A stretch of DNA of 64,000 nucleotides, taken from an uncultured Candidatus Saccharibacteria bacterium (GTDB taxonomy: Bacteria > Patescibacteriota > Doudnabacteria > UBA920). The notes below the pieces were generated by a model. The model saw nothing but the letters and a program-made list of their open reading frames with translations, was not told the origin of the DNA and did no database searches. Both the position numbers and the translations under genes were made by a program. Every line of letters starts with the position of its first letter. The stretch's first letter is position 1. Of this stretch, positions 5,706 to 50,098 are shown one piece after another. The DNA lies in the NCBI GenBank assembly GCA_964617815.1, contig CAZTXY010000001.1:67120-131119 (forward strand), read 5' to 3'.

Positions 5706-6530
5706 CTATTTAGATTCAGCTACCACAATAACATTCTCTAGAAGTTTTGCCACTGTCACAGGCCCAACCCCACCAGGCACAGGTGAAATCCAGGAAGCTT
5801 TTGGCGCAACTGAAGCAAAATCAACATCGCCCGAAATTCCAGCGTTACTTTCCGCAGTGCCAGCATCAATAACCACGGCTCCTTCTTTAACCATATCTCC
5901 TGTAATCAAAGAAACCTTACCAGTACCTGAAACAATCACATCCGCATCGGAGCACAAGCTCGATAAATCACTTGTTGATTGGTCTGCTGTCAATACAGAA
6001 AGGCCTTTTGATGCAAGCAACATCGCAACTGGTTTTCCCACAAGCTCACCCTGCCCCACCACGACAAATTTTTTATTAGTTTGATTCGGCACGGCCGTGT
6101 CCAAAATATGAACAACTGCGTTAGCTGTTGGCGGGACTAAAGAAAAATCGCCCTGATAAAACTTTTTAGTATTTTGCGAATGCAGCACATCCACATCAAG
6201 TTCTGGGGTAATTGCATTTAACGCAGTCTGCCGGTCAATATGATTAGGTAGTGGGAGCTGTAATATCAACCCGCACATATTTGGCAGAAGATTTAATTTT
6301 TGAATTTCCGAAACTAAGTCTTGAGTTGTAATGTCAACTGGAAATTGGCTACGACGAAACTCAATACCAATACTCTCAGCCTTTTTTGCTTTAATGGAAA
6401 CATAAGACAACGAGACTGGGTCATTACCAACAATGACATCGCAAAAAACTGGTTGAAAAGGTAAGCGCTTTACCCGTAACCGTAAGTCCTCTAAAATTTG
6501 ATCTGCAATTTTTTTTCCGTCTATAACCAT
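5706..6530 (-). CDS. folD: bifunctional methylenetetrahydrofolate dehydrogenase/cyclohydrolase
   Basis: Typical FolD sequence. The preferred start is ATG giving MVIDGKK. The ORF track begins at a GTG 12 nt upstream, at 6542. Confidence 0.85.
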   Translation of the reverse strand: MVIDGKKIADQILEDLRLRVKRLPFQPVFCDVIVGNDPVSLSYVSIKAKKAESIGIEFRRSQFPVDITTQDLVSEIQKLNLLPNMCGLILQLPLPNHIDRQTALNAITPELDVDVLHSQNTKKFYQGDFSLVPPTANAVVHILDTAVPNQTNKKFVVVGQGELVGKPVAMLLASKGLSVLTADQSTSDLSSLCSDADVIVSGTGKVSLITGDMVKEGAVVIDAGTAESNAGISGDVDFASVAPKASWISPVPGGVGPVTVAKLLENVIVVAESK

Positions 6531-6539
6531 GAAGTAAGT

Positions 6540-6574
6540 CACTAGGCACTAGCTACTAGGAACTAGCGACTATT
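6540..6574. repeat. tandem heptamer array NACTAGN x5
   Basis: Reads cactagg cactagc tactagg aactagc gactatt. It overlaps the stop codon of the PBP2 gene. Confidence 0.7.
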
Positions 6575-22236: not shown

Positions 22237-22304
22237 ATTAATCTCCTTATTAAATGAACTTTTGTTTCTTAATTTTGTAAAACTTTATAAATAATTATAA
22301 CACC

Positions 22305-22358
22305 TTTATCAAAAATATCCAAAAATCAAAGGAGGGAGTCGTTTCAAACGACTCCCTC
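22305..22358 (-). terminator. Rho-independent terminator ending the high-GC two-gene unit
   Basis: 10-bp perfect stem gagggagtcg/cgactccctc followed by a T-rich run on the minus strand. Confidence 0.7.
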
Positions 22359-22447
22359 ACAGGTTCTGTAGTCCCTACCTAAGACAGGCAGACACCGGTT
22401 GCTGCACAGATCCTTCCTGTCAGTAGAATGATCATGCAAATCCTCCT

Positions 22448-22633
22448 TCATGAATTTGTTACTCCACCCACGGCACCACTGACCTTGGGTGTGTGATGAT
22501 GATTTACTCCCCCTCTGGGAAGCCTTCTTGATGCAAGCTTCTGCATCTGTTCTTCGAGCCGTCTACGTGCTTCCTTGCTGCCGTTTTTCTTTGCAACAGC
22601 TCGAGCCACGTTCTTCCCCCTCTTAATGTTCAT
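22448..22633 (-). CDS. small basic protein (61 aa), high-GC
   Basis: GGGGGG 4 nt upstream of the ATG. Arg/Lys-rich. It directly follows the Cys-rich ORF. Confidence 0.4.
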   Translation of the reverse strand: MNIKRGKNVARAVAKKNGSKEARRRLEEQMQKLASRRLPRGGVNHHHTPKVSGAVGGVTNS

Positions 22634-22642
22634 ACGGCCCCC

Positions 22643-23113
22643 CTAGTTGCGGACAAAGTACGACCGAGCCGAGCACCTCGGACCCGTAGAATCGAATGTC
22701 TCCTTTGGCGATGTGCTCGAGGACTTCGGTGAGACCTCAACTCGCCTGGTGTATGTCCCATTCTTGAAATCATCAGGAGTGAGTGCGCCGCTGTCGCGTG
22801 CAGCTTTGAATTCCGTGCAGTCGAAGGCCAAAAGCGTCTCCCTAGCCCCTCGAATCCCGCAAGCCGGGCACTGGTGACGATGCCTTCGCGCTGAGATCGT
22901 CTCCTGGTGACTGCCTATTTCCTTGCTTCTCGTCTCGCACTCATTCTCGCAAAAATGAGTCGCCAGAAATCCGAATGATCCGAAGACTTTACAGTCTTCG
23001 CATCGAAAACCCCAAGCATTGACGTGACAGTTACCATGGCTGGCAACACGAAATGGTATTGAATTACGCATTGGGCGTGCGCCAGTCGACTCGCTCGCAG
23101 TTCCTGATGACAT
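22643..23113 (-). CDS. Cys-rich zinc-finger-like protein, high-GC
   Basis: CxxC pairs at CEDC, CENEC and CPAC. AGGAGG sits immediately upstream of the ATG. Confidence 0.5.
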   Translation of the reverse strand: MSSGTASESTGARPMRNSIPFRVASHGNCHVNAWGFRCEDCKVFGSFGFLATHFCENECETRSKEIGSHQETISARRHRHQCPACGIRGARETLLAFDCTEFKAARDSGALTPDDFKNGTYTRRVEVSPKSSSTSPKETFDSTGPRCSARSYFVRN

Positions 23114-23164
23114 TCCATCTCCTCCTGCTGAAAATAGAATCCACGCCGTCTTTGACCCACAAAA

Positions 23165-23207
23165 TGTCGGACAAAAGAAAACTCGCTACTTTTTGAAGTA
23201 GCGAGTT
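23165..23207 (-). promoter_or_regulatory. terminator-like hairpin in the 5' leader of the Cys-rich gene (possible attenuator)
   Basis: 11-bp stem aactcgctact/agtagcgagtt. On the minus strand it is followed by tttcttttg, 52 nt before the ATG. Confidence 0.4.
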
Positions 23208-24193: not shown

Positions 24194-25096
24194 ATGATCA
24201 CCTACAGCGAAATTGCCAAAAATAAACGCGAGTCAATTTACTTAATTTTTGGCTTTCTGATTGTAATTTCTGCACTCGGCTGGGTTTTCGCGCAAGTTTA
24301 CGATAATCCATTCATCCTTATCGGCGCTGTGGCCTTTAGCTTTGTAAGCGCCTTCATTTCCTACTTCTTTTCAGACTCAATCACCCTAACCCTTTCCAAA
24401 GCCAAGGAAGTTTCTAGGCAAAGCGCCCCAGAACTGTTTCGACTTGTTGAAAACTTAACCATTAGCGCAGGTCTGCCACTTCCGCGAATTTATATTATAG
24501 AAGACAGTGCCCCCAATGCATTTGCCACTGGCCGTGACCCAAAGCACGCCGTGGTTTGTGTAACCACAGGAATTTTACAAAAACTTGAAAAAACTGAACT
24601 TGAAGGGGTGCTAGCCCATGAACTTTCACATATTGGAAACTACGACATTCGGGTAATGACACTTGTAGTTGTACTAGTTGGAACTCTGACACTAATGTCT
24701 GACTGGTTTTTGCGCGCCTCTTTTTTTGGTGGCAAACGAAGTCGCGACGACAAAGGTTTAGGACAATACTTAGGATTAATTGGTTTAATCCTCGCACTAC
24801 TCTCTCCTATAATAGCAACCTTAATTAAACTGGCTGTTAGTCGAAAAAGAGAATATTTAGCCGACGCCAGTGGTGCTCTACTTACTCGCTACCCCGAAGG
24901 CTTAGCACGCGCTTTAGAAAAAATTGGAAATGACCAAGAACCACTGGAAGTTGCCAACAAAGCCACTGCACATTTATATATTATCAATCCGCTCAAAGCC
25001 CACAGTGCTGACAGCACTGGCTGGTTTGCGGGATTGTTTAACACTCACCCACCTCTTGCCGACCGCATAAAAAAACTTCGCGAAATGAATTTATAA
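24194..25096 (+). CDS. htpX: zinc metalloprotease HtpX (M48)
   Basis: HELSH zinc motif and 4 TM helices. Confidence 0.9.
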   Translation: MITYSEIAKNKRESIYLIFGFLIVISALGWVFAQVYDNPFILIGAVAFSFVSAFISYFFSDSITLTLSKAKEVSRQSAPELFRLVENLTISAGLPLPRIYIIEDSAPNAFATGRDPKHAVVCVTTGILQKLEKTELEGVLAHELSHIGNYDIRVMTLVVVLVGTLTLMSDWFLRASFFGGKRSRDDKGLGQYLGLIGLILALLSPIIATLIKLAVSRKREYLADASGALLTRYPEGLARALEKIGNDQEPLEVANKATAHLYIINPLKAHSADSTGWFAGLFNTHPPLADRIKKLREMNL

Positions 25097-25103
25097 AAAT
25101 GTA

Positions 25104-25135
25104 GAGGCCGTCCCGAAGTGAATCGGGACGGCCTC
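25104..25135. terminator. bidirectional terminator hairpin between htpX (+) and the paralog-1 gene (-)
   Basis: 13-bp perfect stem gaggccgtcccga/tcgggacggcctc. Confidence 0.65.
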
Positions 25136-25149
25136 ATTGCTGGAAAGCG

Positions 25150-25710
25150 CTATTCTGCACTCTCCGGTTTCGCCAGTTGCCGCGCGTTGTACTCGTCCAC
25201 ACAGCGATCGAAGAACTCATCTGCCCTCTCTGGGCCCGAATGAAAATCTGAAAAGCTGAACTGCCCAGCGCAAATGATCTCTAGGTGCTCATGAGATTTT
25301 ACGGTAAGACGCGAAGGACTGAGAGTCCCCGAAGCCATCTCGTCGTAAATCTTCTTGCCTTTGGCAAACAGCTCCTCACGCTGGAGTACACGAACGTGCC
25401 TTTGCATATGCCAAAGGTACGACCGATACCTTTCACGGATAACTCGCTCAACGCGGACTTCCCCCTCGCTCCAGTGAGTGGGAATTTTCGGCATTGAGTC
25501 AAGAGCGATCTCAAAGCCCTTTGCGATCTCGGCCCAGAAAGCCACACTCTCTGATTCCGGATGGAACCCTTTGCTCACAAGCGCCGCAACCATATAAACG
25601 TAAGGGTCAGTCCGACGCTCAAAGTTTATGGTCATAAGTTTGAAAGTCACAAACCAAGTCGCGAAGGCTGTGACTCCGATAATCAAAAAAACGCTGCCAA
25701 TCTCAAACAT
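25150..25710 (-). CDS. membrane-anchored protein of unknown function, paralog 1
   Basis: Start trimmed to MFEIGSV, with GGAGG 8 nt upstream. It has an N-terminal TM helix. It is about 40% identical to the protein at 27373..27951, sharing GFHPE and YxEMASGTLxPSxL. Confidence 0.7.
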   Translation of the reverse strand: MFEIGSVFLIIGVTAFATWFVTFKLMTINFERRTDPYVYMVAALVSKGFHPESESVAFWAEIAKGFEIALDSMPKIPTHWSEGEVRVERVIRERYRSYLWHMQRHVRVLQREELFAKGKKIYDEMASGTLSPSRLTVKSHEHLEIICAGQFSFSDFHSGPERADEFFDRCVDEYNARQLAKPESAE

Positions 25711-25716
25711 GGCGAA

Positions 25717-25738
25717 TTCCTCCGGCTGAAATGTCGAC
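25717..25738 (-). promoter_or_regulatory. conserved 22-nt 5' leader including the SD (copy 1)
   Basis: ttcctccggctgaaatgtcgac is identical to 27959-27980. Confidence 0.7.
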
Positions 25739-25743
25739 GCCCT

Positions 25744-25772
25744 AGTATAGTTATTCTTGCAATCCGAGTCAA
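25744..25772 (-). promoter_or_regulatory. sigma70-type promoter TTGACT-17-TATACT for paralog 1
   Basis: On the minus strand, ttgact then 17 nt then tatact. Confidence 0.7.
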
Positions 25773-25788
25773 TGCCTAACTTTGTAAT

Positions 25789-25837
25789 ATAAAAAAATCG
25801 AGGGGCAGACAAAACGCGAAAGCGTTCGCCTGCCCCT
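25789..25837 (-). terminator. Rho-independent terminator after purC
   Basis: GC-rich stem ggggcag...ctgcccc followed by ttttttt on the minus strand. Confidence 0.7.
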
Positions 25838-25842
25838 TTGCC

Positions 25843-26691
25843 TTACCGAATTGGATGTTTGAAAGCAAACCGACTGGTTTGCTCAGCGACCCAAGCATAG
25901 TTCTCCGCCAGCTTTTCCAAGTCACCGTCAGTGACCTTGGCCAAATCGCGGTAGACTTGCTTGTCTTTGAATTCTTGCTCATCGCGGAAGCGAATCCGCC
26001 AGGAGTCGTTGGTGATGTCGTCGGCAACCAGGATCTTCCCTGTAGCCGAATCGTACCCACACTCGATCTTCATGTCCCACAGGACAATTTCGAGTTCGTA
26101 CAACGCCACCTCCAGAATGCAAAACACGGCGATGGCAAGGTTGCCCAACTTCTGGACGTCATCGGCCGAAACAGTTCGGCCGCCGCGAGTCACAATTGCC
26201 GGAAGTTCACAGAGGAATCCTTGTTCCAAAGGCTTCGAAGCCACGTACATGTCCCAAGTTTGAGACACGTAGTCGTAGACGACCATCGGATCGTGATTAG
26301 CGTCATCCTTGAGGTAAAACTCAGGAGTCAATACTTCAAAGCGAGTGCCTTGAGCAACGTCGGGGTGGCGTTTGCAGTGCGACCCCGTAGCCAACCGCCG
26401 AATCACAATCTCAGCGGGGATCATGTCAACGCGATGCGCAATCATCCCCGTCAATCCAAACTCCCGAATGAAGTGAGTCGGCACACCGTGGTCGTTGAGA
26501 TGCCCCAAACAGTTCATGCTCGTTTGGTTGCACCACACGCCCTTCCCAGGCAAGGTATCGTGCCGAGCGCCGTCACCAGCGGTGATGTCATCTTTCTGGA
26601 AGATGACGACTCTGTTCGGATTTTCTGAAGTTCGGACCACTTTGGTCTTTCCTTCAATGAGAATCCTGCTCTTGTTCATCAAGTCATCCAT
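25843..26691 (-). CDS. purC: phosphoribosylaminoimidazole-succinocarboxamide (SAICAR) synthase
   Basis: LIEGKTKVV, GVPTHFI and KDDANHDPMV align with E. coli PurC. The start is MDDLMNK, with GGAGGG upstream. High-GC. Confidence 0.9.
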   Translation of the reverse strand: MDDLMNKSRILIEGKTKVVRTSENPNRVVIFQKDDITAGDGARHDTLPGKGVWCNQTSMNCLGHLNDHGVPTHFIREFGLTGMIAHRVDMIPAEIVIRRLATGSHCKRHPDVAQGTRFEVLTPEFYLKDDANHDPMVVYDYVSQTWDMYVASKPLEQGFLCELPAIVTRGGRTVSADDVQKLGNLAIAVFCILEVALYELEIVLWDMKIECGYDSATGKILVADDITNDSWRIRFRDEQEFKDKQVYRDLAKVTDGDLEKLAENYAWVAEQTSRFAFKHPIR

Positions 26692-27214
26692 CTTGCTTCC
26701 CTCCGTTTGAACTTTGAACCCCCACTTGCACTGACTTCCGATGAGTTTCGGAATATGTGAGAAGGTTACTGCTAACTGCTGGGTCCACCAGACCAACAGC
26801 AGTGCAAGCTGCTAAGCCGGCGTTGTGCAGTCCAGCTGAGTCAAGACCCAGCACGCAAACTGGCACACCTGGCGGCATTCGGACCATCGAAAGAAGTGAA
26901 TCCATGCCAGAAAGAATGTCAGCGCTTAGCGCCACACCAAAAACCTGCGCTCGGTTTGAAACATGCGAAGCAATTGCTCCGGGTAAGGCCGCCGCCATTC
27001 CAGCAACAGCAATAAACACGACCGTACCAGTCTGGAGCTTGTGCTCGCAGTACTGGCGCAAATCTTCGGGATTGCGGTGAGCGGAAATGATCGAAAGTTC
27101 CCAAGTGACTCCAACCCCGTTGAGGATTGGAAACAACTGAGACAATTTTACCATCTCCAAATCACTTGCACTCCCCAAAACAACAACCACGCTATGGCAA
27201 GCATCCAGAGACAC
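26684..27214 (-). CDS. purE: PurE-family mutase/carboxylase (N5-CAIR mutase or AIR carboxylase)
   Basis: VVVLGSASD, SAHRNP and AGMAAALPG align with PurE. The GTG start has AAGGAGG 5 nt upstream. Its TGA overlaps the purC ATG in ATGGATGA. Confidence 0.85.
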   Translation of the reverse strand: MSLDACHSVVVVLGSASDLEMVKLSQLFPILNGVGVTWELSIISAHRNPEDLRQYCEHKLQTGTVVFIAVAGMAAALPGAIASHVSNRAQVFGVALSADILSGMDSLLSMVRMPPGVPVCVLGLDSAGLHNAGLAACTAVGLVDPAVSSNLLTYSETHRKSVQVGVQSSNGGKQDG

Positions 27215-27266
27215 AACGCCCTCCTTGCTTCGCAGAGTTGCTCCTTGGAGCAGTAGAACCTGCCCT

Positions 27267-27295
27267 ATAGTAGAACACTGGCTTAAAAAAGGCAA
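27267..27295 (-). promoter_or_regulatory. candidate promoter TTGCCT-17-TACTAT for purE-purC
   Basis: It sits between the upstream terminator and the purE SD. Confidence 0.5.
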
Positions 27296-27309
27296 GATTC
27301 TCCTTCTTT

Positions 27310-27357
27310 TTTATTAAAAATGAAATGCGGCCGTCTCGATTTCTCGAAACGGCCGCC
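27310..27357 (-). terminator. Rho-independent terminator after paralog 2
   Basis: Stem gcggccgt...acggccgc followed by a T-run on the minus strand. Confidence 0.65.
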
Positions 27358-27372
27358 TAAAACCAAAGCCGA

Positions 27373-27951
27373 CTAGATGTCAGATTCACCCTCGCCCTCA
27401 TCCTCCGCACCGGTGGCTTGACTTGCCAAGTACTTCTCGACGCACTCATCGAAGAACTCAGAAAGCCCTCCCAAGCCAGAATGAACAGCGGAAAAACCGA
27501 AGTTCCCCGCATCCATGGCCCCTGTCAGTTCATTGGACTTTGTTCGCAGTTGGGACGGCTTCAACGTTCCCGAAGCCATCTCGTTGTAAAGACCCGTGGC
27601 CTTTACAAACATTTCCTCGTACCTGAGTAAGCTAATCCGACCCTTCAGTCCATTGAAGTAGAGGCCGTAAACATCACGTGCGTTCTGCTCGGCCAGCCGT
27701 TTCTCCTTAGACCAAGTGTCAGGAATTGGGCGCAAAGAATTGAAAGCCTTGCCAAACCCCTCTGCTTGCTTGGTCCAGAACTCAATGCTCCTCTGCTCGG
27801 GATGAAAGCCACTTGCCACAAGGGCCGAAAGCATGTCCATGCACGGCTTGTGCTTCCCTTGAAAGTGCCACTTGGCAAGTTGCCACGTTGCCATACACAC
27901 CACCATTACAAGAATAGTAGTGACTACTGCGACCTGGTCAGTCTGTAACAT
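27373..27951 (-). CDS. membrane-anchored protein of unknown function, paralog 2
   Basis: 192 aa with an N-terminal TM helix. GGAGG lies 7 nt upstream. It is the paralog of 25150..25710. Confidence 0.7.
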   Translation of the reverse strand: MLQTDQVAVVTTILVMVVCMATWQLAKWHFQGKHKPCMDMLSALVASGFHPEQRSIEFWTKQAEGFGKAFNSLRPIPDTWSKEKRLAEQNARDVYGLYFNGLKGRISLLRYEEMFVKATGLYNEMASGTLKPSQLRTKSNELTGAMDAGNFGFSAVHSGLGGLSEFFDECVEKYLASQATGAEDEGEGESDI

Positions 27952-27958
27952 CGCTTAT

Positions 27959-27980
27959 TTCCTCCGGCTGAAATGTCGAC
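27959..27980 (-). promoter_or_regulatory. conserved 22-nt 5' leader including the SD (copy 2)
   Basis: Identical to 25717-25738. Confidence 0.7.
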
Positions 27981-27985
27981 CACCA

Positions 27986-28014
27986 AGTATAGTTTAAAAA
28001 AACGCCAAAGTCAA
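27986..28014 (-). promoter_or_regulatory. sigma70-type promoter TTGACT-17-TATACT for paralog 2
   Basis: On the minus strand, ttgact then 17 nt then tatact. It matches the paralog-1 promoter hexamers exactly. Confidence 0.7.
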
Positions 28015-28032
28015 TAACCTTGGCGCGAAAAA

Positions 28033-28494
28033 CTACATAAATTTTTTAATGGTATCCAAGCGAAATCCTCGCGCTTGCAGACGTTGCCCCAGTTTTTGTT
28101 TCTCTAACCCTTTCCCAATTTTCTCAACCAACCGCTTGGCTACGACCAACTCATCTTCTAAACTAAAAAAATCTGACAAAGCCCGTTCAATCAAAACACT
28201 CGCCAGCCTACGCTCTAGTAATTTTTTTTTCAACATATAAAACCCATAGCTTTTATATTTTTTACAATTATCGACAAAAATTTCCGCATACCGAATGTCA
28301 TCAATCAAGCGTTCCTCAGTTAACTGAGAAATGACCTCATCAATAACTTTTTGGTTATAACCCCGTTCTTGCATTTTATGACGAATCTCCCCTTCAGTTC
28401 GTAATTTTATATTTAACAAAAACAAAGCATAGTTATGCCCATGCGAAGTTGAGTCAGGCTCTCTGAGTGGCGATGATTTTTTCTTAAAATACAT
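28033..28494 (-). CDS. recX: RecX-like regulatory protein
   Basis: 153 aa with repeated helical motifs. The RYAEIF and GFYMLKKKL segments resemble RecX. Confidence 0.55.
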   Translation of the reverse strand: MYFKKKSSPLREPDSTSHGHNYALFLLNIKLRTEGEIRHKMQERGYNQKVIDEVISQLTEERLIDDIRYAEIFVDNCKKYKSYGFYMLKKKLLERRLASVLIERALSDFFSLEDELVVAKRLVEKIGKGLEKQKLGQRLQARGFRLDTIKKFM

Positions 28495-37790: not shown

Positions 37791-37888
37791 AAAACCCTTG
37801 ACGGTACGGCCTAACTGTGCAAAAATGGGAGTTAGTTACGGACGAAAAGTGATGCCTCCAAAAATCGCCACAACAGGAGAATATTCCG

Positions 37889-38182
37889 ATGGCAACTCAA
37901 GCATCATCTGTCGCCGTGGAACAGCGCCCCACAACAACCCGCAGCAAACAGGAGGACGGAAGTATCGGTTATGGGACCCTCAAAGAAGGGCCCCGAGAAA
38001 TCGGAATCCGCGTCTTTGGGTTCGTTGGAGTAAACAACGTGGTTGTTTGCATCAATGAAACCACGACGCTCAGGACAGTGAGCATCAACAAGACCTGCCT
38101 TCGGGACAGTGACCCGAAAAGGTACGGCGATGTTCTGAAGCCACTGCCGACAAATCAGTACACGTTCCCCGAACAGGACTGA
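37889..38182 (+). CDS. small hypothetical protein (97 aa) in a GC-rich insert
   Basis: AGGAG 9 nt upstream of the ATG. A strong terminator follows. The local GC is clearly above the surroundings. Confidence 0.35.
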   Translation: MATQASSVAVEQRPTTTRSKQEDGSIGYGTLKEGPREIGIRVFGFVGVNNVVVCINETTTLRTVSINKTCLRDSDPKRYGDVLKPLPTNQYTFPEQD

Positions 38183-38190
38183 TTCCATTG

Positions 38191-38252
38191 CCGGTGCACA
38201 CAGATTTTGGAGACCCGCTCCAGAAGAAGTGTGCACCGGCTCTCTTCTTTTT
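38191..38252 (+). terminator. Rho-independent terminator (long GC-rich hairpin)
   Basis: 11-bp stem ccggtgcacac/gtgtgcaccgg with an inner stem, followed by ctctcttcttttt. Confidence 0.65.
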
Positions 38253-42438: not shown

Positions 42439-44673
42439 TTATTGTCCGCACTTTCCAGAGGAATACTCTAAATAATAACGTGAACCAGTAACAACATAAT
42501 TGCGGGTTTGGCAATAAGTCGCGCTTGCCGCACAATCATTGGTCACATTACTTCCAGGTATACAGGCTGTTTGAGCACCGCTCGTAAAAGGACATTCCCA
42601 AAAGAATTTTCCTGGACAAGAATTACTTGATCTCCAAGGGCCTCCAGGACCTTCACCAGCATTGTAGGCAGCCAAAATATTCCCAATATTATTCCCAATA
42701 TGTGGTTGGTTTGGAATTTGTGATAAATATTTAGTACCACAAAAAATATTTGCTCGCGGGTCACAAGCATCACTAAACGAACCGCATCCTAATCCAGCCC
42801 ATGTTCCTGGTATAATTTGCATTAAACCTTTAGCCCCAGCGGAGCCGTATCCAGTCTGACAATTTCTCCAACCACTTTCTTTTTGAATTACTGCCCTAAT
42901 TAAACTAATATCAACACTATATGCGCGGGAAGCCTCAGCAACAATTCTATCTAAATCGCCATGATTACAAGTAGCAGTTCCCCCTAAATCACATCCGCCA
43001 CTACAAACACCACCGCCAGAACCCTGAACAATTACACACTGTCCTGATCCAGGACCAGGCTCAACACCGCCACCCCCACCTGTCCCGCCACCGCCGAAGA
43101 GTCCTCCGCCGCCAGCACTAAGCGATAACTTTCCACAAATTTCGCTGAGAGCTTGAAATTTTTCTAAACCGGGAACAAAATAAGTAGCGCCGGGAACGTA
43201 AGAAGTTATATTGCCTGCTGTAGAAATCCACTGCGCTCCAGGCAAATTACAAATGACAACAAAAAATAATGCAATCCAAAGAGCTATCCCTATTAAGTAT
43301 ATCGCATTTAGCACTCCTGTGATAAGCATTTTTATCCACCCCATTGGCTGACGAATCCCAATAATAGAACCAACTAAAAATGCATCTAAAACAATTAGCG
43401 GGAGAAAGCCGATGGGGATAAGCACAATAGAAAGTAAACACAAAATGCATATAGCAATCAACCACACCGCCATATCGTCAAGGCCAGACTTAATGACAGC
43501 CTTAGCACTTTCGATAGCAATATTAATAGCAACACCAACACCGGGTGCAACATTGGCGGCAGTAGCCGCTGTTTCAGCAACTGCAGCTGCGGCATCAATA
43601 GCAATATCGGCACCTAACTTAGCAGTCTCTGTAACTTTACCAAGACCACTTGCTTCTTCTATCTTATGTTTGCGATTTGCAATGTCAGCACCTGCATCAA
43701 TTACAGCGCCACCAATGGACAATGCCCCAGAAATATTCGCAGCTTTACTCCCAGCTTCTGCCCCCGCTACACCAGCTTTTATAGCATTACCAGTAATTCC
43801 AACTCCGGCTTTAGCAGCTGTTCCAGCCACTTCTGCAGCCTCAGCTCCACCACGAATAGCTCCTGCAGCCGCACGTTCGGCCCCGGCTCCCCGGCCCACA
43901 GTCCGAGCAGCTCCGCCTAAGCGAGCTGCATCTTCAACACCTTCTTCAGCTAACTCTTCGCCTGCTTTAACAGATGCTTTTCCCGGAGCACCGGGCTGCC
44001 CTTCAACAGTTTCTGATTTTGGAACGTCATCTGGAGACTCAGCCTTTGCTTTTGCTTGATCACGCTCTTTTACGCGCTTATCGTAATCTTTCTTGTGACG
44101 CTCTGCAAATTCAACCGGGCCTTCCTTTTCCTCTTTTTGTTGCCCTTGTTGTGCGTCGTTTCCTGTTTCTGCTTTTTTTTCTGAACCATCTCCTTCTTCA
44201 TCCGGACTTTTTAGCCGATCTTCAGTTAAACTTTGATCATTTTTTTGTGCTTGGTCGTCTAGAGCATTTTCTTTAGAAAAAGATTCATTGTTCGAAGAAG
44301 TTTGTTGTTGATTAATATTTTGATTATCATTGAAAGCTGATGCATTATCTCCGCCTGTATTGCTAGGTGTGGTCTTGCCACGAAAAGGACTAACTGTGCC
44401 AGGTTGTGAAGAGGACCCCCCATTTCCTTTTTGCTTAAAATCAACTTGAGTAACCTTAGTTTTTACTTTTGGATCATTAGAAACAACCGTGACAGGTTTA
44501 TCACTTTCTGCATCTCCACTTTTTTTTGGCACAACGCGCATAGCAGCGCGGGGCTGGCCATCACCCTGACTGCCTCCTTGAATAACAGAAAAGCCTGGCT
44601 GCTCTCCAGCCGATTGTTCTTCGTTATCTACATCGGAGTCGGTTGGCAGTCTTGCCAGGTTATCATTCGCCAT
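42439..44673 (-). CDS. VirB1-like lytic transglycosylase fusion protein
   Basis: Disordered N-terminal region, Ala-rich region, TM helices and a Gly-rich linker. The Cys-rich C-terminal domain carries SLT motifs QKESGW, GLMQI and AYNAG. Confidence 0.7.
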   Translation of the reverse strand: MANDNLARLPTDSDVDNEEQSAGEQPGFSVIQGGSQGDGQPRAAMRVVPKKSGDAESDKPVTVVSNDPKVKTKVTQVDFKQKGNGGSSSQPGTVSPFRGKTTPSNTGGDNASAFNDNQNINQQQTSSNNESFSKENALDDQAQKNDQSLTEDRLKSPDEEGDGSEKKAETGNDAQQGQQKEEKEGPVEFAERHKKDYDKRVKERDQAKAKAESPDDVPKSETVEGQPGAPGKASVKAGEELAEEGVEDAARLGGAARTVGRGAGAERAAAGAIRGGAEAAEVAGTAAKAGVGITGNAIKAGVAGAEAGSKAANISGALSIGGAVIDAGADIANRKHKIEEASGLGKVTETAKLGADIAIDAAAAVAETAATAANVAPGVGVAINIAIESAKAVIKSGLDDMAVWLIAICILCLLSIVLIPIGFLPLIVLDAFLVGSIIGIRQPMGWIKMLITGVLNAIYLIGIALWIALFFVVICNLPGAQWISTAGNITSYVPGATYFVPGLEKFQALSEICGKLSLSAGGGGLFGGGGTGGGGGVEPGPGSGQCVIVQGSGGGVCSGGCDLGGTATCNHGDLDRIVAEASRAYSVDISLIRAVIQKESGWRNCQTGYGSAGAKGLMQIIPGTWAGLGCGSFSDACDPRANIFCGTKYLSQIPNQPHIGNNIGNILAAYNAGEGPGGPWRSSNSCPGKFFWECPFTSGAQTACIPGSNVTNDCAASATYCQTRNYVVTGSRYYLEYSSGKCGQ

Positions 44674-44691
44674 AAATTTGTACTAACCTAA

Positions 44692-46536
44692 TTATCCTGC
44701 AAACTGGTCTTTGCTTTCTTGAATTTCCAGTAACTGTTTCGGGTCTGTTGTAATTATTTGGTCTTCCATGTAGGAAGCGTAAATTTTGATAGCCGCATGC
44801 TTAAGTCCAGCAAAAAATATTCCTTCACCAACATCACTTTCAAGTAATAAATATTTCTCACCTTCAGTTAAAAAGAAAGTTTCAGCCACAATATCCACAG
44901 ACGCAGGACTTTGCTTAAGAAGTAACTGAATTGAAGAGTTTGTGACAATTGGTTTGCCGTACGGACTACTCATAAAATCTGCGACATCCTGAGTGATTGT
45001 TGTAAGACCAAGATAATATTTACGAGCGCGCTTGGCAATTCCATACACAAACCGAGCGGAGTCTTCGTGTTGCATAAGTATCCAAGCTTCATCAAGTACT
45101 AAGATACGGCGCTTCAGCTCGCTTCTAACCACATTCCAAATATGTCCTAAAATTAAATACATTGCCACTGGCCTTAGCTCGTCTTCTAAATCGCGAATTG
45201 AAAAAACTAAAAGCTGATTATTTAAAACAACGTTGCTTGGCTGGTTAAGAAGCCCAGCAAAAGTTCCTTCGGTAAACTTCGAGAGACGCTGAGCTAAACT
45301 TTCCGCACCCACCATATCACCTAAGACAGAAACTAAATCACTCATCACCGGATAGTCAGTGGTCTTAAGTTCCATGCCAGGAGTAATATCTTTGTTCGCA
45401 TACGCCTGCCAAATAGCTTTATCAAGTAGCGCTTCTTCAGTTGGATCTAGTTTACCTAAAACTAAATTCATCAGCCCCAAAAGTCCAATCACCGCACTGC
45501 GCATGGTGTCACTACTGTCTTCACCTTCAAGACCAATAGGTAAGTCAAAAGGATTAATGCGGTAGTCTGAGTTAAGCGAGATGCTTAAATATGTTCCACC
45601 AACCGCGTCGGCTAAATGTTTATATTCATTTTCAGGATCCACAATTAAAACTTCAATGCCAACCATCAAAGAACGCAGGACTTCTAATTTCACCGCATAC
45701 GATTTTCCGGCACCAGACTTAGCAAAAATTACAAAATTAGCATTTTCCATCTTAAACCGGTCAAATAAAATTAAACCGTTGTTGTGCCGGTTAATCCCGT
45801 AAAGTACTCCATCATTTCCAGTTAAATCCGAAGACACAAAAGGAAAAGTTGTCGAAAGGGGGCTGGTATTTAGATTATTTGCTACACCTAAATCGTCTAA
45901 TTGCATTGGCAATGTCGAGTTAAACCCAGGTTGCATTTGCATTAAGGCTCTCTTTGTAACCACGAGCTTCGCACCAAGTGCACTTTCAAGAATAGTTGAC
46001 TCTTTGTCGAGTTCGCGAAGATCTTTAGCATACAAAGTAAAATACAAAGCAAAACGAAAATACTTTTCAGTACCTTGCAATAAATTATCGCGCAATTCCT
46101 CGACGTCGTGATATCCTGTTTCCAGTAATGGATCACGTACCAAACCTTTTTCTCGGTTAATCATCATTTGTGAACCAATCTCTCCAACCTTCCCTTTCAA
46201 CTTTCTCAAGATTGTTCCAGAGTCAATTGGGTAAATAAACATTGAGACATCTAATGCCCCTTGAGAGTTGATAACAAACGACAACCAGTTCGAAGATAAA
46301 TAACGTGGGTAGGTTAAGACAAAAAAACTACGCGCAAATTTTCCATTCAACTCAAAATGGTCAGCCTCAAACTTCAAGCTTGCAGGCGCTATAAGGTCTT
46401 TAAGCGAAGTTAAACCTTGCTTATAGCTATCTTCAAGAGTACTAAGCTCTTTTCGAGTCGCCTCTTTACTCTTGCGCTCCTCAAGCTCATGCTTTTTCGC
46501 TTCTAATTGTTCTTCTGAAAGGTTAAACCAAGACAT
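44692..46536 (-). CDS. VirB4/TraC-like conjugal transfer ATPase, C-terminal ATPase part
   Basis: Walker A FAKSGAGKS and the Walker B region VLDEAW. Family-level resemblance to VirB4/TrsE. Confidence 0.8.
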   Translation of the reverse strand: MSWFNLSEEQLEAKKHELEERKSKEATRKELSTLEDSYKQGLTSLKDLIAPASLKFEADHFELNGKFARSFFVLTYPRYLSSNWLSFVINSQGALDVSMFIYPIDSGTILRKLKGKVGEIGSQMMINREKGLVRDPLLETGYHDVEELRDNLLQGTEKYFRFALYFTLYAKDLRELDKESTILESALGAKLVVTKRALMQMQPGFNSTLPMQLDDLGVANNLNTSPLSTTFPFVSSDLTGNDGVLYGINRHNNGLILFDRFKMENANFVIFAKSGAGKSYAVKLEVLRSLMVGIEVLIVDPENEYKHLADAVGGTYLSISLNSDYRINPFDLPIGLEGEDSSDTMRSAVIGLLGLMNLVLGKLDPTEEALLDKAIWQAYANKDITPGMELKTTDYPVMSDLVSVLGDMVGAESLAQRLSKFTEGTFAGLLNQPSNVVLNNQLLVFSIRDLEDELRPVAMYLILGHIWNVVRSELKRRILVLDEAWILMQHEDSARFVYGIAKRARKYYLGLTTITQDVADFMSSPYGKPIVTNSSIQLLLKQSPASVDIVAETFFLTEGEKYLLLESDVGEGIFFAGLKHAAIKIYASYMEDQIITTDPKQLLEIQESKDQFAG

Positions 46537-46540
46537 ATAG

Positions 46541-47245
46541 TTAACTCACTTCATTATTATTTCCAACAATCGCTATTTCTCCTAATTTTCCAGCATCGAT
46601 TAGCGGTCCCGACTCAAAATTATACGAATTATAAAATAGCTCAATCAGCTGTTCGGTATTTAGTCGCACTGCACGCAAACTCATCCCACCTAAGTTATTG
46701 GCAACACTACCAGCCCGTTCATCAAGTAAAGTTCTAACTTTTTCAAAATTTTCCAGCCTTTGGGCAATTTCCCGTGTTTTAGTACTTTTAAATAATCTTG
46801 CAAAAAATCCCGCTTTAGGAGGAAAAATATTTTGGGGCAATGAAATAATAATGTAAAAATTTTTATTCATTATATTTGCGCTCTCAACTAAATGGCTAAT
46901 AAACTCAATGTACTCACCAGTTTGAATGCGTAGCAATTCATTAGGCTGTTTTTCCATTAAGTGTTTTAAACTTTCGGTGTAGTCACCAATATCCATTCTT
47001 CGACTCTGCATTAAAACTTGGATTGGAAAATCCAACGAATTAATAAACCGCTGATATGCAACAATTAAAGCATCTTGTTCATCCTGACTCTTAAGATCAA
47101 AGTTTGTGCTTGAAACAGCCACCACGGCACGCAGGGTTCCGTCTTCCATAACAACACAGTCGTTGCGAATTTCATAAAATCGCAAAAATGATTGCGTTGG
47201 TTTTAAAATTGGTTTATTTGATTTTTTGTTTGAAAAAAGTCCCAT
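46541..47245 (-). CDS. VirB4-like N-terminal domain encoded as a separate ORF
   Basis: TAA-CTAT-ATG junction with the downstream ATPase ORF. The sequence pattern resembles the VirB4 N-domain of Gram-positive T4SS. Confidence 0.5.
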   Translation of the reverse strand: MGLFSNKKSNKPILKPTQSFLRFYEIRNDCVVMEDGTLRAVVAVSSTNFDLKSQDEQDALIVAYQRFINSLDFPIQVLMQSRRMDIGDYTESLKHLMEKQPNELLRIQTGEYIEFISHLVESANIMNKNFYIIISLPQNIFPPKAGFFARLFKSTKTREIAQRLENFEKVRTLLDERAGSVANNLGGMSLRAVRLNTEQLIELFYNSYNFESGPLIDAGKLGEIAIVGNNNEVS

Positions 47246-47253
47246 AAAATAAA

Positions 47254-47700
47254 TTAAAGTGGTTTATCTGCCAAAGCTGTCTCTGCAGCACCTTGCTGTG
47301 AAAGAGTGTAATTAAGTTTATGAAGCCTGACCGTTGCACTTTCCTGCTCTATTTTTGGAAGAGTAGTATCTGCTTGTTTTGTTTCTTGATCCATTAAAAT
47401 TTGGTGAGAAGAATCTAGCCCTTGTTTTGAAAAAATTAGAACTCTTGGGCTGACCATATACTGCAAATACGGGTAGAAGGTTGAATATAAAGGCCGACCG
47501 TTAATTTTTGCGAAAGTCAAAATTAACGCTGGCATTCCAAAAATTAAAAAGGCAAAGATGCCAACAATAATACTTTTTGTTCCTGTATAAAGCAAAAATG
47601 TCAGTGCGGCACCTGCACCTAAAATACCAAACTGCTTTAAAGTCAGTCCAGCTATGATTTTGTCTTCTACATCTGTAAATTGTGGGACGCTATATTGCAT
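47254..47700 (-). CDS. VirB3/PrgI-like small membrane protein
   Basis: 148 aa with two adjacent TM helices, sitting directly upstream of virB4. Confidence 0.4.
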   Translation of the reverse strand: MQYSVPQFTDVEDKIIAGLTLKQFGILGAGAALTFLLYTGTKSIIVGIFAFLIFGMPALILTFAKINGRPLYSTFYPYLQYMVSPRVLIFSKQGLDSSHQILMDQETKQADTTLPKIEQESATVRLHKLNYTLSQQGAAETALADKPL

Positions 47701-47744
47701 TCGTCTCTTTTTAGTATATCACACTATTTGCTTAATTGATCGCT

Positions 47745-48707
47745 CTAATTTACTTGAGTAGCACGCAAGACATCAATAACTGCTTCAAAATCTGTTTTAG
47801 ACATCCCGCCTAAATTTGCTGTAGTATTTGGGTCTGAATGCATCAATGCTTGCTGGCCTGCTTTCATATACTCTTCATACAAAGGACTTTTTTCTAACAA
47901 AAATAAAACTGAAAAATATCCAAACTTTTTAACTAAGGACCTCATGGCTTCAAGTAAATCATCTTTCCCAAGTGACATCACTGTCGACCGATTTAAGTGC
48001 TCTACATCTTCTAAGGATTTAAGCTCGAGCGGAACTTCACTTGAAAAATTAGTTTTCGCCACTTCCATTTTCTGGGGCAACTCACTTAAAGAGCTATGCT
48101 TAAGCAAAGCGCTATAGTCAGTCTGCTTAGTGACAACTTTTTGCAAATGAACAGGGGTTATTGGCTTCAACCCTGCTTTCACCAAAGGTAGGCCTGCGGT
48201 AGGGTTAGGACGAGCATTTATTGATGCCAAAGGCGCTGTCGCAATACTAGGTCTTGCAGGAGAGTTAAGTTGATGATCAAAATCTTCTTGACCACTTTCC
48301 AATTCTTTTTCTGTCATGACCTGTGCCAAACTTTTTGCAAAAGCCCCTGTAGTTTGACCCTTGTCTTCGTGCCTAAATGTTTTCACCTGAGAACTTAAAG
48401 TTTGCTGAGGAGCACCCAAATTATTTGGTAAATTAGTTATATGATGAAGGCGGTTTGCAGTTAGAGGAGCAGAAGCCACTGGCTTAAGAGATGCTGAAAT
48501 TGGCCCAGGTTTTGGGCGCTGTTGTGTTTCTGGTAATTTTGCAATGACCACGCTAGAAGACGGCGCAGATAAAATAGTGACTAAGTCACTTAGCTGTTTG
48601 TCATTCATCACCGGCAAACTCTCAAGCCATGTTGTTTTTTCATCGGGCTGGAGTAATTTTGAAAAGGCAATAAGATTTTTAATTTTTTCTAGCGGTATAG
48701 AAGTCAT
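47745..48707 (-). CDS. hypothetical protein in the T4SS-like cluster (P/S/T-rich)
   Basis: 320 aa with no recognised domain. Confidence 0.4.
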   Translation of the reverse strand: MTSIPLEKIKNLIAFSKLLQPDEKTTWLESLPVMNDKQLSDLVTILSAPSSSVVIAKLPETQQRPKPGPISASLKPVASAPLTANRLHHITNLPNNLGAPQQTLSSQVKTFRHEDKGQTTGAFAKSLAQVMTEKELESGQEDFDHQLNSPARPSIATAPLASINARPNPTAGLPLVKAGLKPITPVHLQKVVTKQTDYSALLKHSSLSELPQKMEVAKTNFSSEVPLELKSLEDVEHLNRSTVMSLGKDDLLEAMRSLVKKFGYFSVLFLLEKSPLYEEYMKAGQQALMHSDPNTTANLGGMSKTDFEAVIDVLRATQVN

Positions 48708-48715
48708 TGTTTGCC

Positions 48716-50095: not shown

Positions 50096-50098
50096 AGA

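What the first reader, a model, noticed from the sequence alone, without database searches (positions are those of the whole stretch)
25100..28020. High-GC purE-purC cassette in a low-GC genome that shows no other purine biosynthesis genes here
The roughly 2.9-kb segment between htpX and recX has visibly higher GC than its surroundings. I estimate about 50-55% against 35-40% by eye. It carries a translationally coupled purE-purC pair: the purE TGA overlaps the purC ATG in ATGGATGA. purE starts at a GTG with a perfect AAGGAGG 5 nt upstream. The cassette has its own candidate promoter and a GC-rich terminator. A two-step N5-CAIR/AIR to CAIR to SAICAR module without the rest of the pathway in view is odd. 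The purE active-site region reads AGMAAALPG, which is neither the textbook class I AGGAAHLPG nor the class II signature. This looks like a horizontally acquired metabolic module, for example from a host or a phage.
Basis: partly seen in the sequence, partly recalled or inferred. Interest (0 to 1): 0.8.

Follow-up and report, generated by a model that had tools for sequence, protein, structure and literature searches.

The report
Foreign purE-purC islet, purH deleted
A 2.9-kb GC-rich block between two housekeeping genes of a small low-GC bacterium carries two late purine-synthesis genes flanked by two lineage-restricted membrane-protein genes; it is a genuine but old horizontal acquisition shared with sister strains, which also keep a third purine gene (purH) that this genome has deleted, so it is an instructive but fairly ordinary case.

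Summary
Window 25100-28020 has 51.4% GC against 39.8% elsewhere, and its codon usage lies outside all 43 host genes. purE (GTG start, AAGGAGG 5 nt upstream) overlaps purC in ATGGATGA.

- The island holds four genes. purE-purC is bracketed by two paralogous orphan genes (orfA1, orfA2) with near-identical promoters and leaders.
- Four related assemblies carry the same island at the same htpX/recX site, plus purH. This genome has a clean ~1.8-kb purH deletion.
- More distant relatives have this site empty or filled with other cargo. One holds an orfA homologue and no pur genes.

PurC belongs to the PurC type closest to the SAICAR-synthetase half of animal PAICS; this type is common in Patescibacteria and Chloroflexota. 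PurE is class-I-like, and its AGMAAALPG loop is shared with its nearest relatives (49-52% identity, Patescibacteria). Another contig has purB-purE-purC-purH as one operon at 55% GC.

Sampled phage homologues are distant (33% identity or less for PurC, 41% or less for PurE) and sit on low-GC contigs.

Verdict: an old horizontally acquired late-purine (AIR to IMP) module, now partly eroded. It is not phage-derived, and no host origin can be shown. Moderate interest.

The parts
25104..25135 (-). Terminator of orfA2 (13-bp stem, 10 GC pairs, T-run). It marks the left edge of the island, 8 nt from the htpX stop at 25096.
   Evidence: sequence
25150..25710 (-). orfA2: 186 aa from the ATG, with an N-terminal transmembrane helix and an all-helical domain. 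It is a 37%-identical paralogue of orfA1, with no known family.
25717..25772 (-). orfA2 promoter (TTGACT-17-TATACT, 25772-25744) and its invariant leader GTCGACATTTCA..GGAGGAA. It is a direct repeat of the orfA1 copy (36 nt, 92% identity).
25791..25836 (-). purE-purC terminator: a GGGGCAG...CTGCCCC hairpin followed by TCGATTTTTTT.
   Evidence: sequence; the inner part was picked up
25843..26691 (-). purC, SAICAR synthetase (282 aa) of the type closest to the SAICAR-synthetase half of PAICS. Its ATG overlaps the purE stop (ATGGATGA).
26684..27214 (-). purE (176 aa, GTG start). It is class-I-like, with SAHRNP and AGMAAALPG loops.
27220..27226 (-). Shine-Dalgarno AAGGAGG, 5 nt upstream of the purE GTG.
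   Evidence: sequence
27267..27295 (-). Candidate purE promoter TTGCCT-17-TACTAT, conserved in relatives. It is weaker than the orfA promoters and below the scan threshold.
   Evidence: sequence, read by eye
27300..27309 (.). Scar of the ~1.8-kb deletion that removed purH with its promoter and most of its terminator. Relatives L004, L009, L013 and L096 have purH here.
27327..27356 (-). Terminator of orfA1 (13-bp stem).
27373..27951 (-). orfA1: 192 aa, with an N-terminal transmembrane helix, five predicted helices and an acidic tail. It is an orphan family.
27959..28014 (-). orfA1 promoter (TTGACT-17-TATACT, 28014-27986) and conserved leader. Its -35 hexamer sits inside the recX terminator hairpin (28026-28002), which marks the right edge of the island.

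Best explanation
The segment is an old, horizontally acquired islet in the hypervariable htpX|recX intergenic site of a low-GC, Patescibacteria-like genome. The host assignment is an inference from gene content.

Ancestral form. It was orfA1 - purH (opposite strand) - purE-purC - orfA2, made of four separately promoted and terminated units, all at about 50-55% GC. The pur genes are the late, AIR-to-IMP part of purine synthesis:
- PurE makes CAIR from AIR plus CO2, or from N5-CAIR.
- PurC ligates aspartate to CAIR to give SAICAR.
- PurB, which is not in the island, gives AICAR.
- PurH gives IMP.

Origin. The same gene set occurs as one purB-purE-purC-purH operon in a 55%-GC genome, so the cargo most likely came from a higher-GC lineage with Patescibacteria-type enzymes. 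The orfA family itself lives at this same site in a relative that has no pur genes, and no integrase or att repeats are present. I therefore infer that the whole block entered by homologous recombination through the conserved flanks from a related, GC-richer lineage.

This genome. A ~1.8-kb deletion removed purH. purE and purC are intact, translationally coupled and still under purifying selection.

Shown: the island, its anatomy, the shared site, the empty or alternative sites, the purH deletion, and the enzyme family assignments.
Inferred: the enzymatic activities, the source of AIR, the donor, and the entry mechanism.
For: Composition and codon usage are outliers.

The same island lies between recX and htpX in L004, L009, L013 and L096, all of which carry purH. 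These come from different projects (Logan, ENA, JGI) and are 83-90% identical in nucleotides.

The deletion junction keeps a truncated half of the purH terminator stem. By PurC and PurE identities the tree is (L013,(window,(L004,L009,L096))), so one loss explains the pattern better than two gains.

Relatives with HtpX at 66-75% and ClpC at 73-83% identity keep lemA-htpX-recX-clpC. At the site they have nothing (L103), other orphans (L100-L102), or an orfA homologue with no pur genes (L205; hhalign 99.1%, E 6e-19).

dN/dS between the window and its relatives is 0.08-0.24 for purE and purC and 0.25-0.49 for the orfA genes. dS of the island genes (0.17-0.69) overlaps that of the flanking genes (0.07-0.75).

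Enzyme assignments rest on Pfam and the PDB. The window PurC carries every column that is invariant across its 24-sequence family alignment.

The nearest homologues are named Patescibacteria or Parcubacteria. In L204, purB-purE-purC-purH are contiguous at 55.5% GC, with PurH 54% identical to the sister-island PurH. purE-purC coupling is conserved in other Patescibacteria (L006, L199, L200).
Against: No donor closer than about 50% identity was found, so the source lineage is unnamed.

No mobility gene, tRNA or flanking direct repeat marks the island, so the entry mechanism is only inferred.

The island has kept its GC through dS of about 0.2-0.7 without visible amelioration. This is unexpected for neutral drift and may mean the transfer was later or repeated; the mosaic dS values (recX 0.066 against htpX 0.58 to L009) show recombination among these lineages.

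Both enzymes score below NCBIfam's equivalog cut-offs (124 against 149.6; 123 against 189.9).

No purK, purB or early pur gene is in view, so whether any flux passes through the pair in this genome is unknown.
Confidence: 0.62

Rival explanations
1. The two orfA genes are the native, older residents of the htpX|recX site. Only the pur genes (purH, purE-purC) were inserted between them. The whole five-gene block was not imported.
For: L205 has an orfA homologue, plus a second TM-anchored helical ORF, at the same site with no pur genes and at near-host GC (0.40 against 0.36). In 1.84 billion representative proteins the orfA family is seen only at this site.
Against: In the window and all sister loci, orfA1 and orfA2 have the same foreign composition as the pur genes: GC 0.48-0.52, GC3 0.56-0.61, and codon-usage distance 0.21-0.24 against a host maximum of 0.18. 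Resident genes would not show this.
Confidence: 0.2
2. The purE-purC pair in this genome is a functionless remnant. After purH was deleted the module no longer yields IMP and is on its way to being lost.
For: purH is deleted cleanly here but kept in all four relatives. orfA1 is frameshifted in L013-L015 and orfA2 appears truncated in L009, so the island is eroding in places. No purB or purH lies in the 64 kb.
Against: Both ORFs are intact, with the SD, overlap, promoter and terminator preserved. The window lineage has only 2 (PurE) and 7 (PurC) private amino-acid changes, against 0-4 in L004, L009 and L096. All family-invariant PurC residues are retained. Pairwise dN/dS is 0.08-0.24. purH or purB may lie elsewhere in the genome; the contig is 147.7 kb and only 64 kb was seen.
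Confidence: 0.2
3. The genes are native, vertically inherited Patescibacteria genes. Their high GC reflects amino-acid composition or selection, not transfer.
For: purE-purC pairs are widespread in Patescibacteria. purC is on average 2.7 GC points above its flanks there, and 5-7 points in several genomes.
Against: The excess here is 12.5 points and is carried mainly by third codon positions. The unrelated orfA genes share it. Relatives with conserved synteny lack the genes at this site. The best non-sister homologues are only about 50% identical.
Confidence: 0.06
4. The cassette is a phage-derived auxiliary metabolic module or a prophage remnant, or it was taken from the host organism of this putative episymbiont.
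For: Phage purC genes exist (phrog_1112, 1e-38). Four IMG/VR contigs carry both PurC and a PurE with the SAHRNP/AGMSAALPG loops.
Against: Viral PurC is at most 33% and viral PurE at most 41% identical, further away than cellular Patescibacteria homologues. Those contigs have 29-38% GC, the wrong direction for a 51-55% GC island. No orfA relative is found in IMG/VR, PHROGs or PADLOC. There is no integrase and no structural or att feature. A host donor cannot be tested without knowing the host. No non-Patescibacteria homologue is closer than 47% identity.
Confidence: 0.05
5. The segment is an assembly chimera or a contaminating fragment.
For: There are sharp compositional steps at both edges.
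Against: The same junctions (recX|orfA1 and orfA2|htpX) are assembled independently in at least four other samples and projects, and short Logan contigs from three runs match the window PurC and orfA2 exactly.
Confidence: 0.02

Closest known systems
PAICS (animal bifunctional AIR carboxylase / SAICAR synthetase) and its prokaryotic relatives
   Same: The window PurC is closest, among solved structures, to the SAICAR-synthetase half of insect and human PAICS (E 1.7e-43 and 4.3e-43, against 1e-29 for the best stand-alone bacterial or archaeal PurC structures). It is 41-43% identical to eukaryotic PAICS. PurE and PurC are physically coupled. Relatives even fuse them (L018 as PurE-PurC; L021 as PurC-PurE).
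   Different: Here there are two genes in the order purE then purC, the reverse of PAICS. PurE is class-I-like (SAHR, AGMAAALPG), not class II (SAHK, AGRSNxLxG). The class II partner sits next to this PurC type in Chloroflexota and DPANN archaea, not here.
Class I PurE (N5-CAIR mutase; E. coli, A. aceti, B. anthracis, T. maritima)
   Same: It has the same fold family (PF00731). The best PDB matches are class I enzymes at E 1e-26 to 1e-18. The P-loop GSxSD and the catalytic-His loop SAHR are conserved. Arg after the His is the class I state and Lys the class II state (PMC10484210).
   Different: The 70s loop reads AGMAAALPG instead of AGGAAHLPG, so the class-I-specific His is Ala. The protein scores below the TIGR01162 equivalog cut-off. 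No purK is seen next to it in the window or in four annotated relatives' loci. Class-I-like PurE without PurK is already discussed for archaea from high-CO2 settings (PMC3261824).
Late-purine operon purB-purE-purC-purH of other uncultured bacteria (L204, GCA_936416985.1)
   Same: It has the same enzyme subfamilies (PurC 47%, PurH 54% to the sister-island PurH, PurE with AGMAAALPG), the same purE-purC coupling and similar GC (55.5%).
   Different: There it is a single co-directional operon that includes purB, set among housekeeping genes. Here it is split into separate units, purB is absent, purH is divergent in the sisters and deleted in this genome, and orfA genes bracket it.
Classical integrase-borne genomic island or phage auxiliary metabolic gene
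   Same: It shows compositional deviation, presence/absence polymorphism at a fixed chromosomal site, and metabolic cargo.
   Different: There is no integrase, tRNA target, flanking direct repeats or phage genes. It is only 2.9 kb (4.7 kb in the sister genomes).

Membership tests
Class I PurE (N5-CAIR mutase) | AIRC/PurE fold and overall sequence similarity to characterised class I enzymes | tested here: met
   PF00731 at 1.6e-37. PDB class I hits at 4e-26 to 2e-18, against class II at 1e-6 to 5e-4.
Class I PurE (N5-CAIR mutase) | Catalytic His in the 40s loop followed by Arg (SAHR) | tested here: met
   SAHRNP aligns to SAHRTP of 3trh, 1o4v and 1xmp. The Arg/Lys distinction is from PMC10484210.
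Class I PurE (N5-CAIR mutase) | 70s loop AGGAAHLPG with the class-I-specific His | tested here: not met
   The loop reads AGMAAALPG. The same variant is in its nearest homologues, although the word-indexed search favours hits that share this motif.
Class I PurE (N5-CAIR mutase) | NCBIfam TIGR01162 equivalog score cut-off | tested here: not met
   124.2 bits against a cut-off of 149.6.
Class I PurE (N5-CAIR mutase) | Works with PurK (N5-CAIR synthetase) encoded in the genome | tested here: inconclusive
   No PurK or ATP-grasp protein in the 64-kb window or within 10 kb in L006, L199, L200 or L204. The rest of the genome was not available.
Class II PurE (AIR carboxylase) | SAHK and AGRSN(G/A)LxG loops, with closest similarity to T. 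denticola or PAICS PurE | tested here: not met
   Neither loop is present. E is only 1.2e-6 (3rg8) and 1.4e-4 (2h31). True class II loops are seen next to this PurC type in Chloroflexota and DPANN loci.
SAICAR synthetase (PurC), PAICS-like subfamily | PF01259 domain over its full length and retention of family-invariant residues | tested here: met
   1.3e-47 over residues 11-254. 40 invariant columns are shared with 23 homologues.
SAICAR synthetase (PurC), PAICS-like subfamily | Closer to the PAICS N-terminal domain than to stand-alone bacterial PurC structures | tested here: met
   4ja0 and 2h31 at about 1e-43, against 1kut and 2yzl at about 1e-29.
SAICAR synthetase (PurC), PAICS-like subfamily | NCBIfam TIGR00081 equivalog cut-off | tested here: not met
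   123.1 bits against a cut-off of 189.9.
PAICS (fused bifunctional enzyme) | Single polypeptide, PurC domain first, class II PurE domain second | tested here: not met
   Two ORFs overlap by 8 nt, with purE first. Fusions exist only in other loci (L018, L021).
Horizontally acquired genomic islet | Composition and codon usage outside the host range | tested here: met
Horizontally acquired genomic islet | Absent from the same syntenic site in related genomes | tested here: met
   L103 is empty. L100-L102 and L205 hold other cargo.
Horizontally acquired genomic islet | Mobility signature (integrase, tRNA target, flanking direct repeats) | tested here: not met
   There is no tRNA nearer than 32267. 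The only internal repeat is the duplicated orfA promoter and leader. No recombinase was found among the ORFs.
Phage auxiliary metabolic gene / prophage | Nearest relatives on viral contigs, or phage genes alongside | tested here: not met

The most novel reading that the evidence does not exclude
The SAHRNP / AGM(A/S)AALPG PurE proteins may form a third functional kind of PurE. They are seen here, in many Patescibacteria, in a lone Rhodospirillales gene and on some IMG/VR contigs, and in the loci examined they never sit next to purK. Such an enzyme would be a PurK-independent AIR carboxylase working in CO2-rich habitats. Together with the PAICS-type PurC, PurB and PurH it would form a self-contained, horizontally traded AIR-to-IMP half-pathway. 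That half-pathway would let ultra-small symbionts turn a scavenged imidazole intermediate (AIR or its riboside) into purine nucleotides. In this reading the membrane-anchored orfA proteins, with their invariant promoter and leader, belong functionally to the module, for example by tethering or regulating it.
Probability: 0.15. Interest if true: 0.6.

Novelty: new member of a known kind. Interest (0 to 1): 0.33.

Why it matters
Candidate-phyla-radiation bacteria are usually described as unable to make nucleotides. This locus shows, at a single well-resolved site, that a late-purine module can be gained, shared by descent and then partly lost. The window deleted purH, and orfA is frameshifted in a sister lineage. 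That gives a small natural experiment on how biosynthetic capacity turns over in reduced genomes.

It also shows two further points:
- The PurC type nearest to the animal PAICS domain is common in Patescibacteria and Chloroflexota, and it pairs with three different PurE types.
- The AGMAAALPG PurE variant is a subfamily trait whose chemistry (mutase or direct carboxylase) has not been tested.

None of this is a new kind of system.

Tried and rejected
- Riboswitch or leader RNA in the island: Rfam at gathering and at E up to 5 gave only chance hits and no ZTP, purine or PRPP riboswitch.
- att sites or mobility: the repeat search found only the duplicated orfA promoter/leader and short chance repeats. 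There is no nearby tRNA.
- Function of orfA: there was no Pfam, NCBIfam, PHROG or PADLOC hit. A word-indexed search found only 3 clusters, and an exhaustive profile search of 1.84 billion representatives found only orfA1, orfA2 and one distant relative. The AlphaFold model (pLDDT 75, one TM helix plus five helices) had no Foldseek PDB match better than E 0.7. The afdb50 library was unavailable.
- Whole-genome search for other pur genes: the source NCBI contig (147,678 bp) could not be retrieved beyond the window. The species is not among the GTDB representatives (best PurC 44%). Presence of purB, purH, purK or purF-M elsewhere therefore stays open.
- Donor identification: no homologue is above 52% identity outside the sister strains.
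- Literature: four full-text searches found no description of this module in Patescibacteria. This is not evidence that none exists.
- Test of whether AGMAAALPG-type PurE co-occurs with purK in Rhodospirillales: the gene is solitary there, so the test was uninformative.

Full report
**1.

Window 25100-28020 has 51.4% GC against 39.8% for the rest. Same-length windows elsewhere average 39.8 +/- 1.5% and never exceed 44.1%. The 200-nt profile puts the steps at about 25100 and 27990. Tetranucleotide deviation peaks here (0.038 against a median of 0.014). Third-position GC of the island genes is 0.56-0.65, against 0.20-0.42 for the window's other protein-coding genes. A codon-usage distance places each of the four island genes (0.19-0.24) beyond all 43 host genes (mean 0.11, maximum 0.18).

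On the minus strand:
- purE runs 27214..26684 from a GTG, with AAGGAGG exactly 5 nt upstream.
- purC runs 26691..25843.
- The purE TGA and the purC ATG share ATGGATGA.

Pfam confirms AIRC (1.6e-37) and SAICAR_synt (1.3e-47). Pfam scans of about 50 other ORFs show an ordinary small-genome set: Mur ligase, SerRS, GreA, FolD, PBP2, MreBC, ProRS, RseP, RRF, GatCAB, ClpC, ComF, ECF sigma, RecG, RadA, T4SS-like genes, KsgA, UvrD, RecO and IleRS. No other purine gene is present.

I call the host Patescibacteria-like from this gene content and from the provenance of its relatives' contigs. No taxonomic label was available, so this is an inference.

**2.

The island has four genes in three transcription units. 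purE-purC is bracketed by orfA1 (27951..27373, 192 aa) and orfA2 (25710..25150, 186 aa). These are 37%-identical paralogues.

Each orfA gene has a near-consensus promoter, TTGACT-17-TATACT. Each also has a leader, GTCGACATTTCA...GGAGGAA, that is invariant between the paralogues and across relatives, even though the proteins have diverged to 37% identity. Each unit ends in a strong hairpin terminator.

The orfA proteins have one N-terminal transmembrane helix followed by basic residues and an all-helical domain (AlphaFold pLDDT 75). I infer a cytoplasm-facing, membrane-anchored protein.

Nothing is known about the family:
- It has no Pfam, NCBIfam, PHROG or PADLOC hit.
- It has no structural match.
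- In an exhaustive profile search of 1.84 billion representative proteins it has only three members.

**3. The same island in sister genomes, with purH**

Four independent assemblies carry recX - orfA1 - purH (539 aa, opposite strand) - purE - purC - orfA2 - htpX at 83-90% nucleotide identity: L004 (Logan), L009 (ENA), L013 (JGI) and L096. Their island genes are likewise at 48-56% GC beside 35-46% flanks.

In the window, about 1.8 kb (L004 1996-3793) is replaced by 8 nt at 27301-27308. The junction keeps the first half of the purH terminator stem (...AAGGAG|) joined directly to the purE -35 region (|AATCTTGCC). PurE and PurC identities give the tree (L013,(window,(L004,L009,L096))). One deletion in the window lineage is therefore the parsimonious reading.

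This removes most of the oddity of a two-step module. The ancestral cargo was three of the five AIR-to-IMP enzymes.

**4. The site is a variable cargo site, and the island is not recent**

Relatives with HtpX at 66-75%, LemA at 85-88% and ClpC at 73-83% identity keep lemA-htpX-recX-clpC. At the htpX|recX junction they have:
- only a 109-nt terminator spacer (L103);
- unrelated small orphans (L100-L102);
- in L205, a genuine orfA homologue (hhalign 99.1%, E 6e-19) plus a second TM-anchored ORF, with no pur genes and near-host GC.

Synonymous divergence between the window and the sister strains is 0.17-0.69 for island genes and 0.07-0.75 for flanks. dN/dS is 0.08-0.24 for purE and purC and 0.25-0.49 for the orfA genes. 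The island therefore predates the split of these lineages and has since been inherited with, and recombined along with, its surroundings.

No integrase, tRNA or att-like repeat is present. The orfA family is tied to this very site, yet here it has foreign composition. I therefore favour import of the whole block by homologous recombination from a GC-richer relative over insertion of the pur genes between resident orfA genes. This choice is an inference.

**5. Where the enzymes belong**

*PurC.* Its best solved relatives are the SAICAR-synthetase halves of insect and human PAICS (about 1e-43, against 1e-29 for the best stand-alone bacterial or archaeal PurC structures). That PurC type is widespread in Patescibacteria, Chloroflexota, Armatimonadota, some Actinomycetota and DPANN archaea. 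The best non-sister hits are 46-49% identical.

*PurE.* It is class-I-like. PDB class I enzymes score 1e-26, against 1e-6 for T. denticola class II and 1e-4 for PAICS. It has SAHR rather than SAHK (the Arg/Lys distinction is from PMC10484210). Its nearest homologues are 49-52% identical and are named Patescibacteria or Parcubacteria.

*The AGMAAALPG loop.* All the nearest homologues carry AGM(A/S)AALPG. The word-indexed search enriches for that motif, so the count of 100 in 120 is not a frequency.

*Pairings of this PurC type.* It pairs with three kinds of PurE:
- classical class I (AGGAAHLPG; L017, L026, L046);
- class II (SAHK/AGRSNALxG), placed immediately downstream in Chloroflexota and DPANN and fused in L021;
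- the SAHRNP/AGM(A/S)AALPG type (window, L006, L199, L200, L204).

*Caveats.* Both window enzymes fall below NCBIfam's equivalog cut-offs. Class-I-like PurE without PurK is already known from archaea in CO2-rich habitats, where N5-CAIR forms non-enzymatically or PurE overexpression compensates (PMC3261824). From my own recollection, not checked here, the class-I-specific His is not strictly essential in A. aceti PurE.

**6. The likely source and the rivals**

L204 (GCA_936416985.1) has purB-purE-purC-purH contiguous at 55.5% GC. Its PurH is 54% and its PurC 47% identical to the island proteins, and its PurE has AGMAAALPG. It is the best model of the donor arrangement.

Other low-GC contigs also hold GC-rich copies. 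L203 has purC at 56% GC in a 41% contig, and several Patescibacteria show +5 to +7 points, whereas Chloroflexota show none. This suggests repeated transfer of these genes into low-GC lineages.

The rivals fare as follows:
- Phage origin is disfavoured. Viral PurC is at most 33% and viral PurE at most 41% identical, those contigs are 29-38% GC, and orfA has no viral relative.
- Chimeric assembly is excluded by the independent assemblies.
- Native genes with biased composition cannot explain the GC3 shift, the orfA genes or the empty sites.

**7. How it most likely works**

Shown by homology: PurE converts AIR/N5-CAIR to CAIR, and PurC uses ATP and aspartate to make SAICAR.

Inferred: with PurB and PurH this gives IMP. 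FolD in the window (5706-6542) could supply the 10-formyl-THF that PurH needs.

In this genome purH is gone from the island, and purB is not in view. The pair may feed enzymes encoded elsewhere, or it may be a remnant. Intact signals, few private substitutions (2 in PurE and 7 in PurC) and low dN/dS argue that it is still used, but this is unproven.

The source of AIR is unknown. It could be a full upstream pathway or uptake of an intermediate.

**8. Verdict**

Its core is known enzymes in a horizontally acquired islet of a reduced genome, which is a familiar theme. The distinctive details are:
- the bracketing orphan paralogues with an invariant promoter and leader;
- the datable purH deletion;
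- the untested AGMAAALPG PurE subfamily.

I rate it as moderate interest and as a new member of a known kind.

Noticed in passing
window 37796-38250: About 450 nt between the ends of recG and radA has 48-60% GC in a 40% genome. Its 110-aa ORF has no Pfam hit and the region has no Rfam hit even at E up to 1. It folds far better than shuffles on both strands (z -5.3 and -4.7). It is probably an unclassified structured RNA.
   Followed up: partly
window ~22300-23200: About 900 nt upstream of lemA has 45-61% GC. The ORF 22643-23113 has an R/S/C-rich, non-protein-like translation and no Pfam hit. The region is 86% conserved in L009 and has no Rfam match. It may be a large non-coding RNA or a degraded element.
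   Followed up: partly
L100 8910-9600; L101 6540-7170; L102 3170-4320; L103 1800-1910; L205 2660-4160: The htpX|recX intergenic site is a hypervariable cargo site in this clade. It is empty in L103 and holds different small orphan genes in L100-L102. In L205 it holds an orfA homologue plus another TM-anchored ORF, with no pur genes.
   Followed up: yes
L203 4910-5728: A solitary PAICS-type purC (48% identical to the window's) has 56% GC and GC3 0.70, inside a 41%-GC contig whose neighbours have GC3 0.28-0.44. It looks like an independent second case of a GC-rich purC in a low-GC genome.
   Followed up: partly
L018 9491-10843; L021 9947-11299: There are natural PurE-PurC fusions in both orders in Patescibacteria. 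L018 has PurE first, with an AGLANALAG loop. L021 has PurC first with a class II PurE (SAHK/AGRSNALG), which is the PAICS architecture, next to purB.
   Followed up: partly
L181, L184, L188, L194 (IMG/VR contigs): These low-GC viral contigs carry both a PurC and a PurE with the SAHRNP/AGMSAALPG loops. This PurE subfamily therefore also circulates in phages, or in sequences classed as viral.
   Followed up: partly
L196-L198 5001-5492: Rhodospirillales contigs carry a solitary 163-aa PurE with the exact AGMAAALPG loop. It is not next to purK or any pur gene, so it may be a paralogue with another role.
   Followed up: no
L013-L015 (orfA1, about 2315-2831 in L013); L009 10547-11104: orfA1 is split by a frameshift in the L013, L014 and L015 lineage, and orfA2 appears truncated in L009. 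The orphan genes are therefore eroding in some sister strains.
   Followed up: partly
window 28033-28494 compared with L009 5970-6431: recX differs from L009 at dS 0.066, while neighbouring clpC, htpX and lemA are at dS 0.41-0.59. This mosaic pattern indicates recent homologous recombination between these lineages.
   Followed up: no
window 42439-54118: This is a cluster of conjugation or type-IV-secretion-like genes: an SLT transglycosylase with a Gly-rich region, a TraG/VirB4-like ATPase, a PrgI-family protein, and a 1339-aa membrane protein with no family.
   Followed up: no
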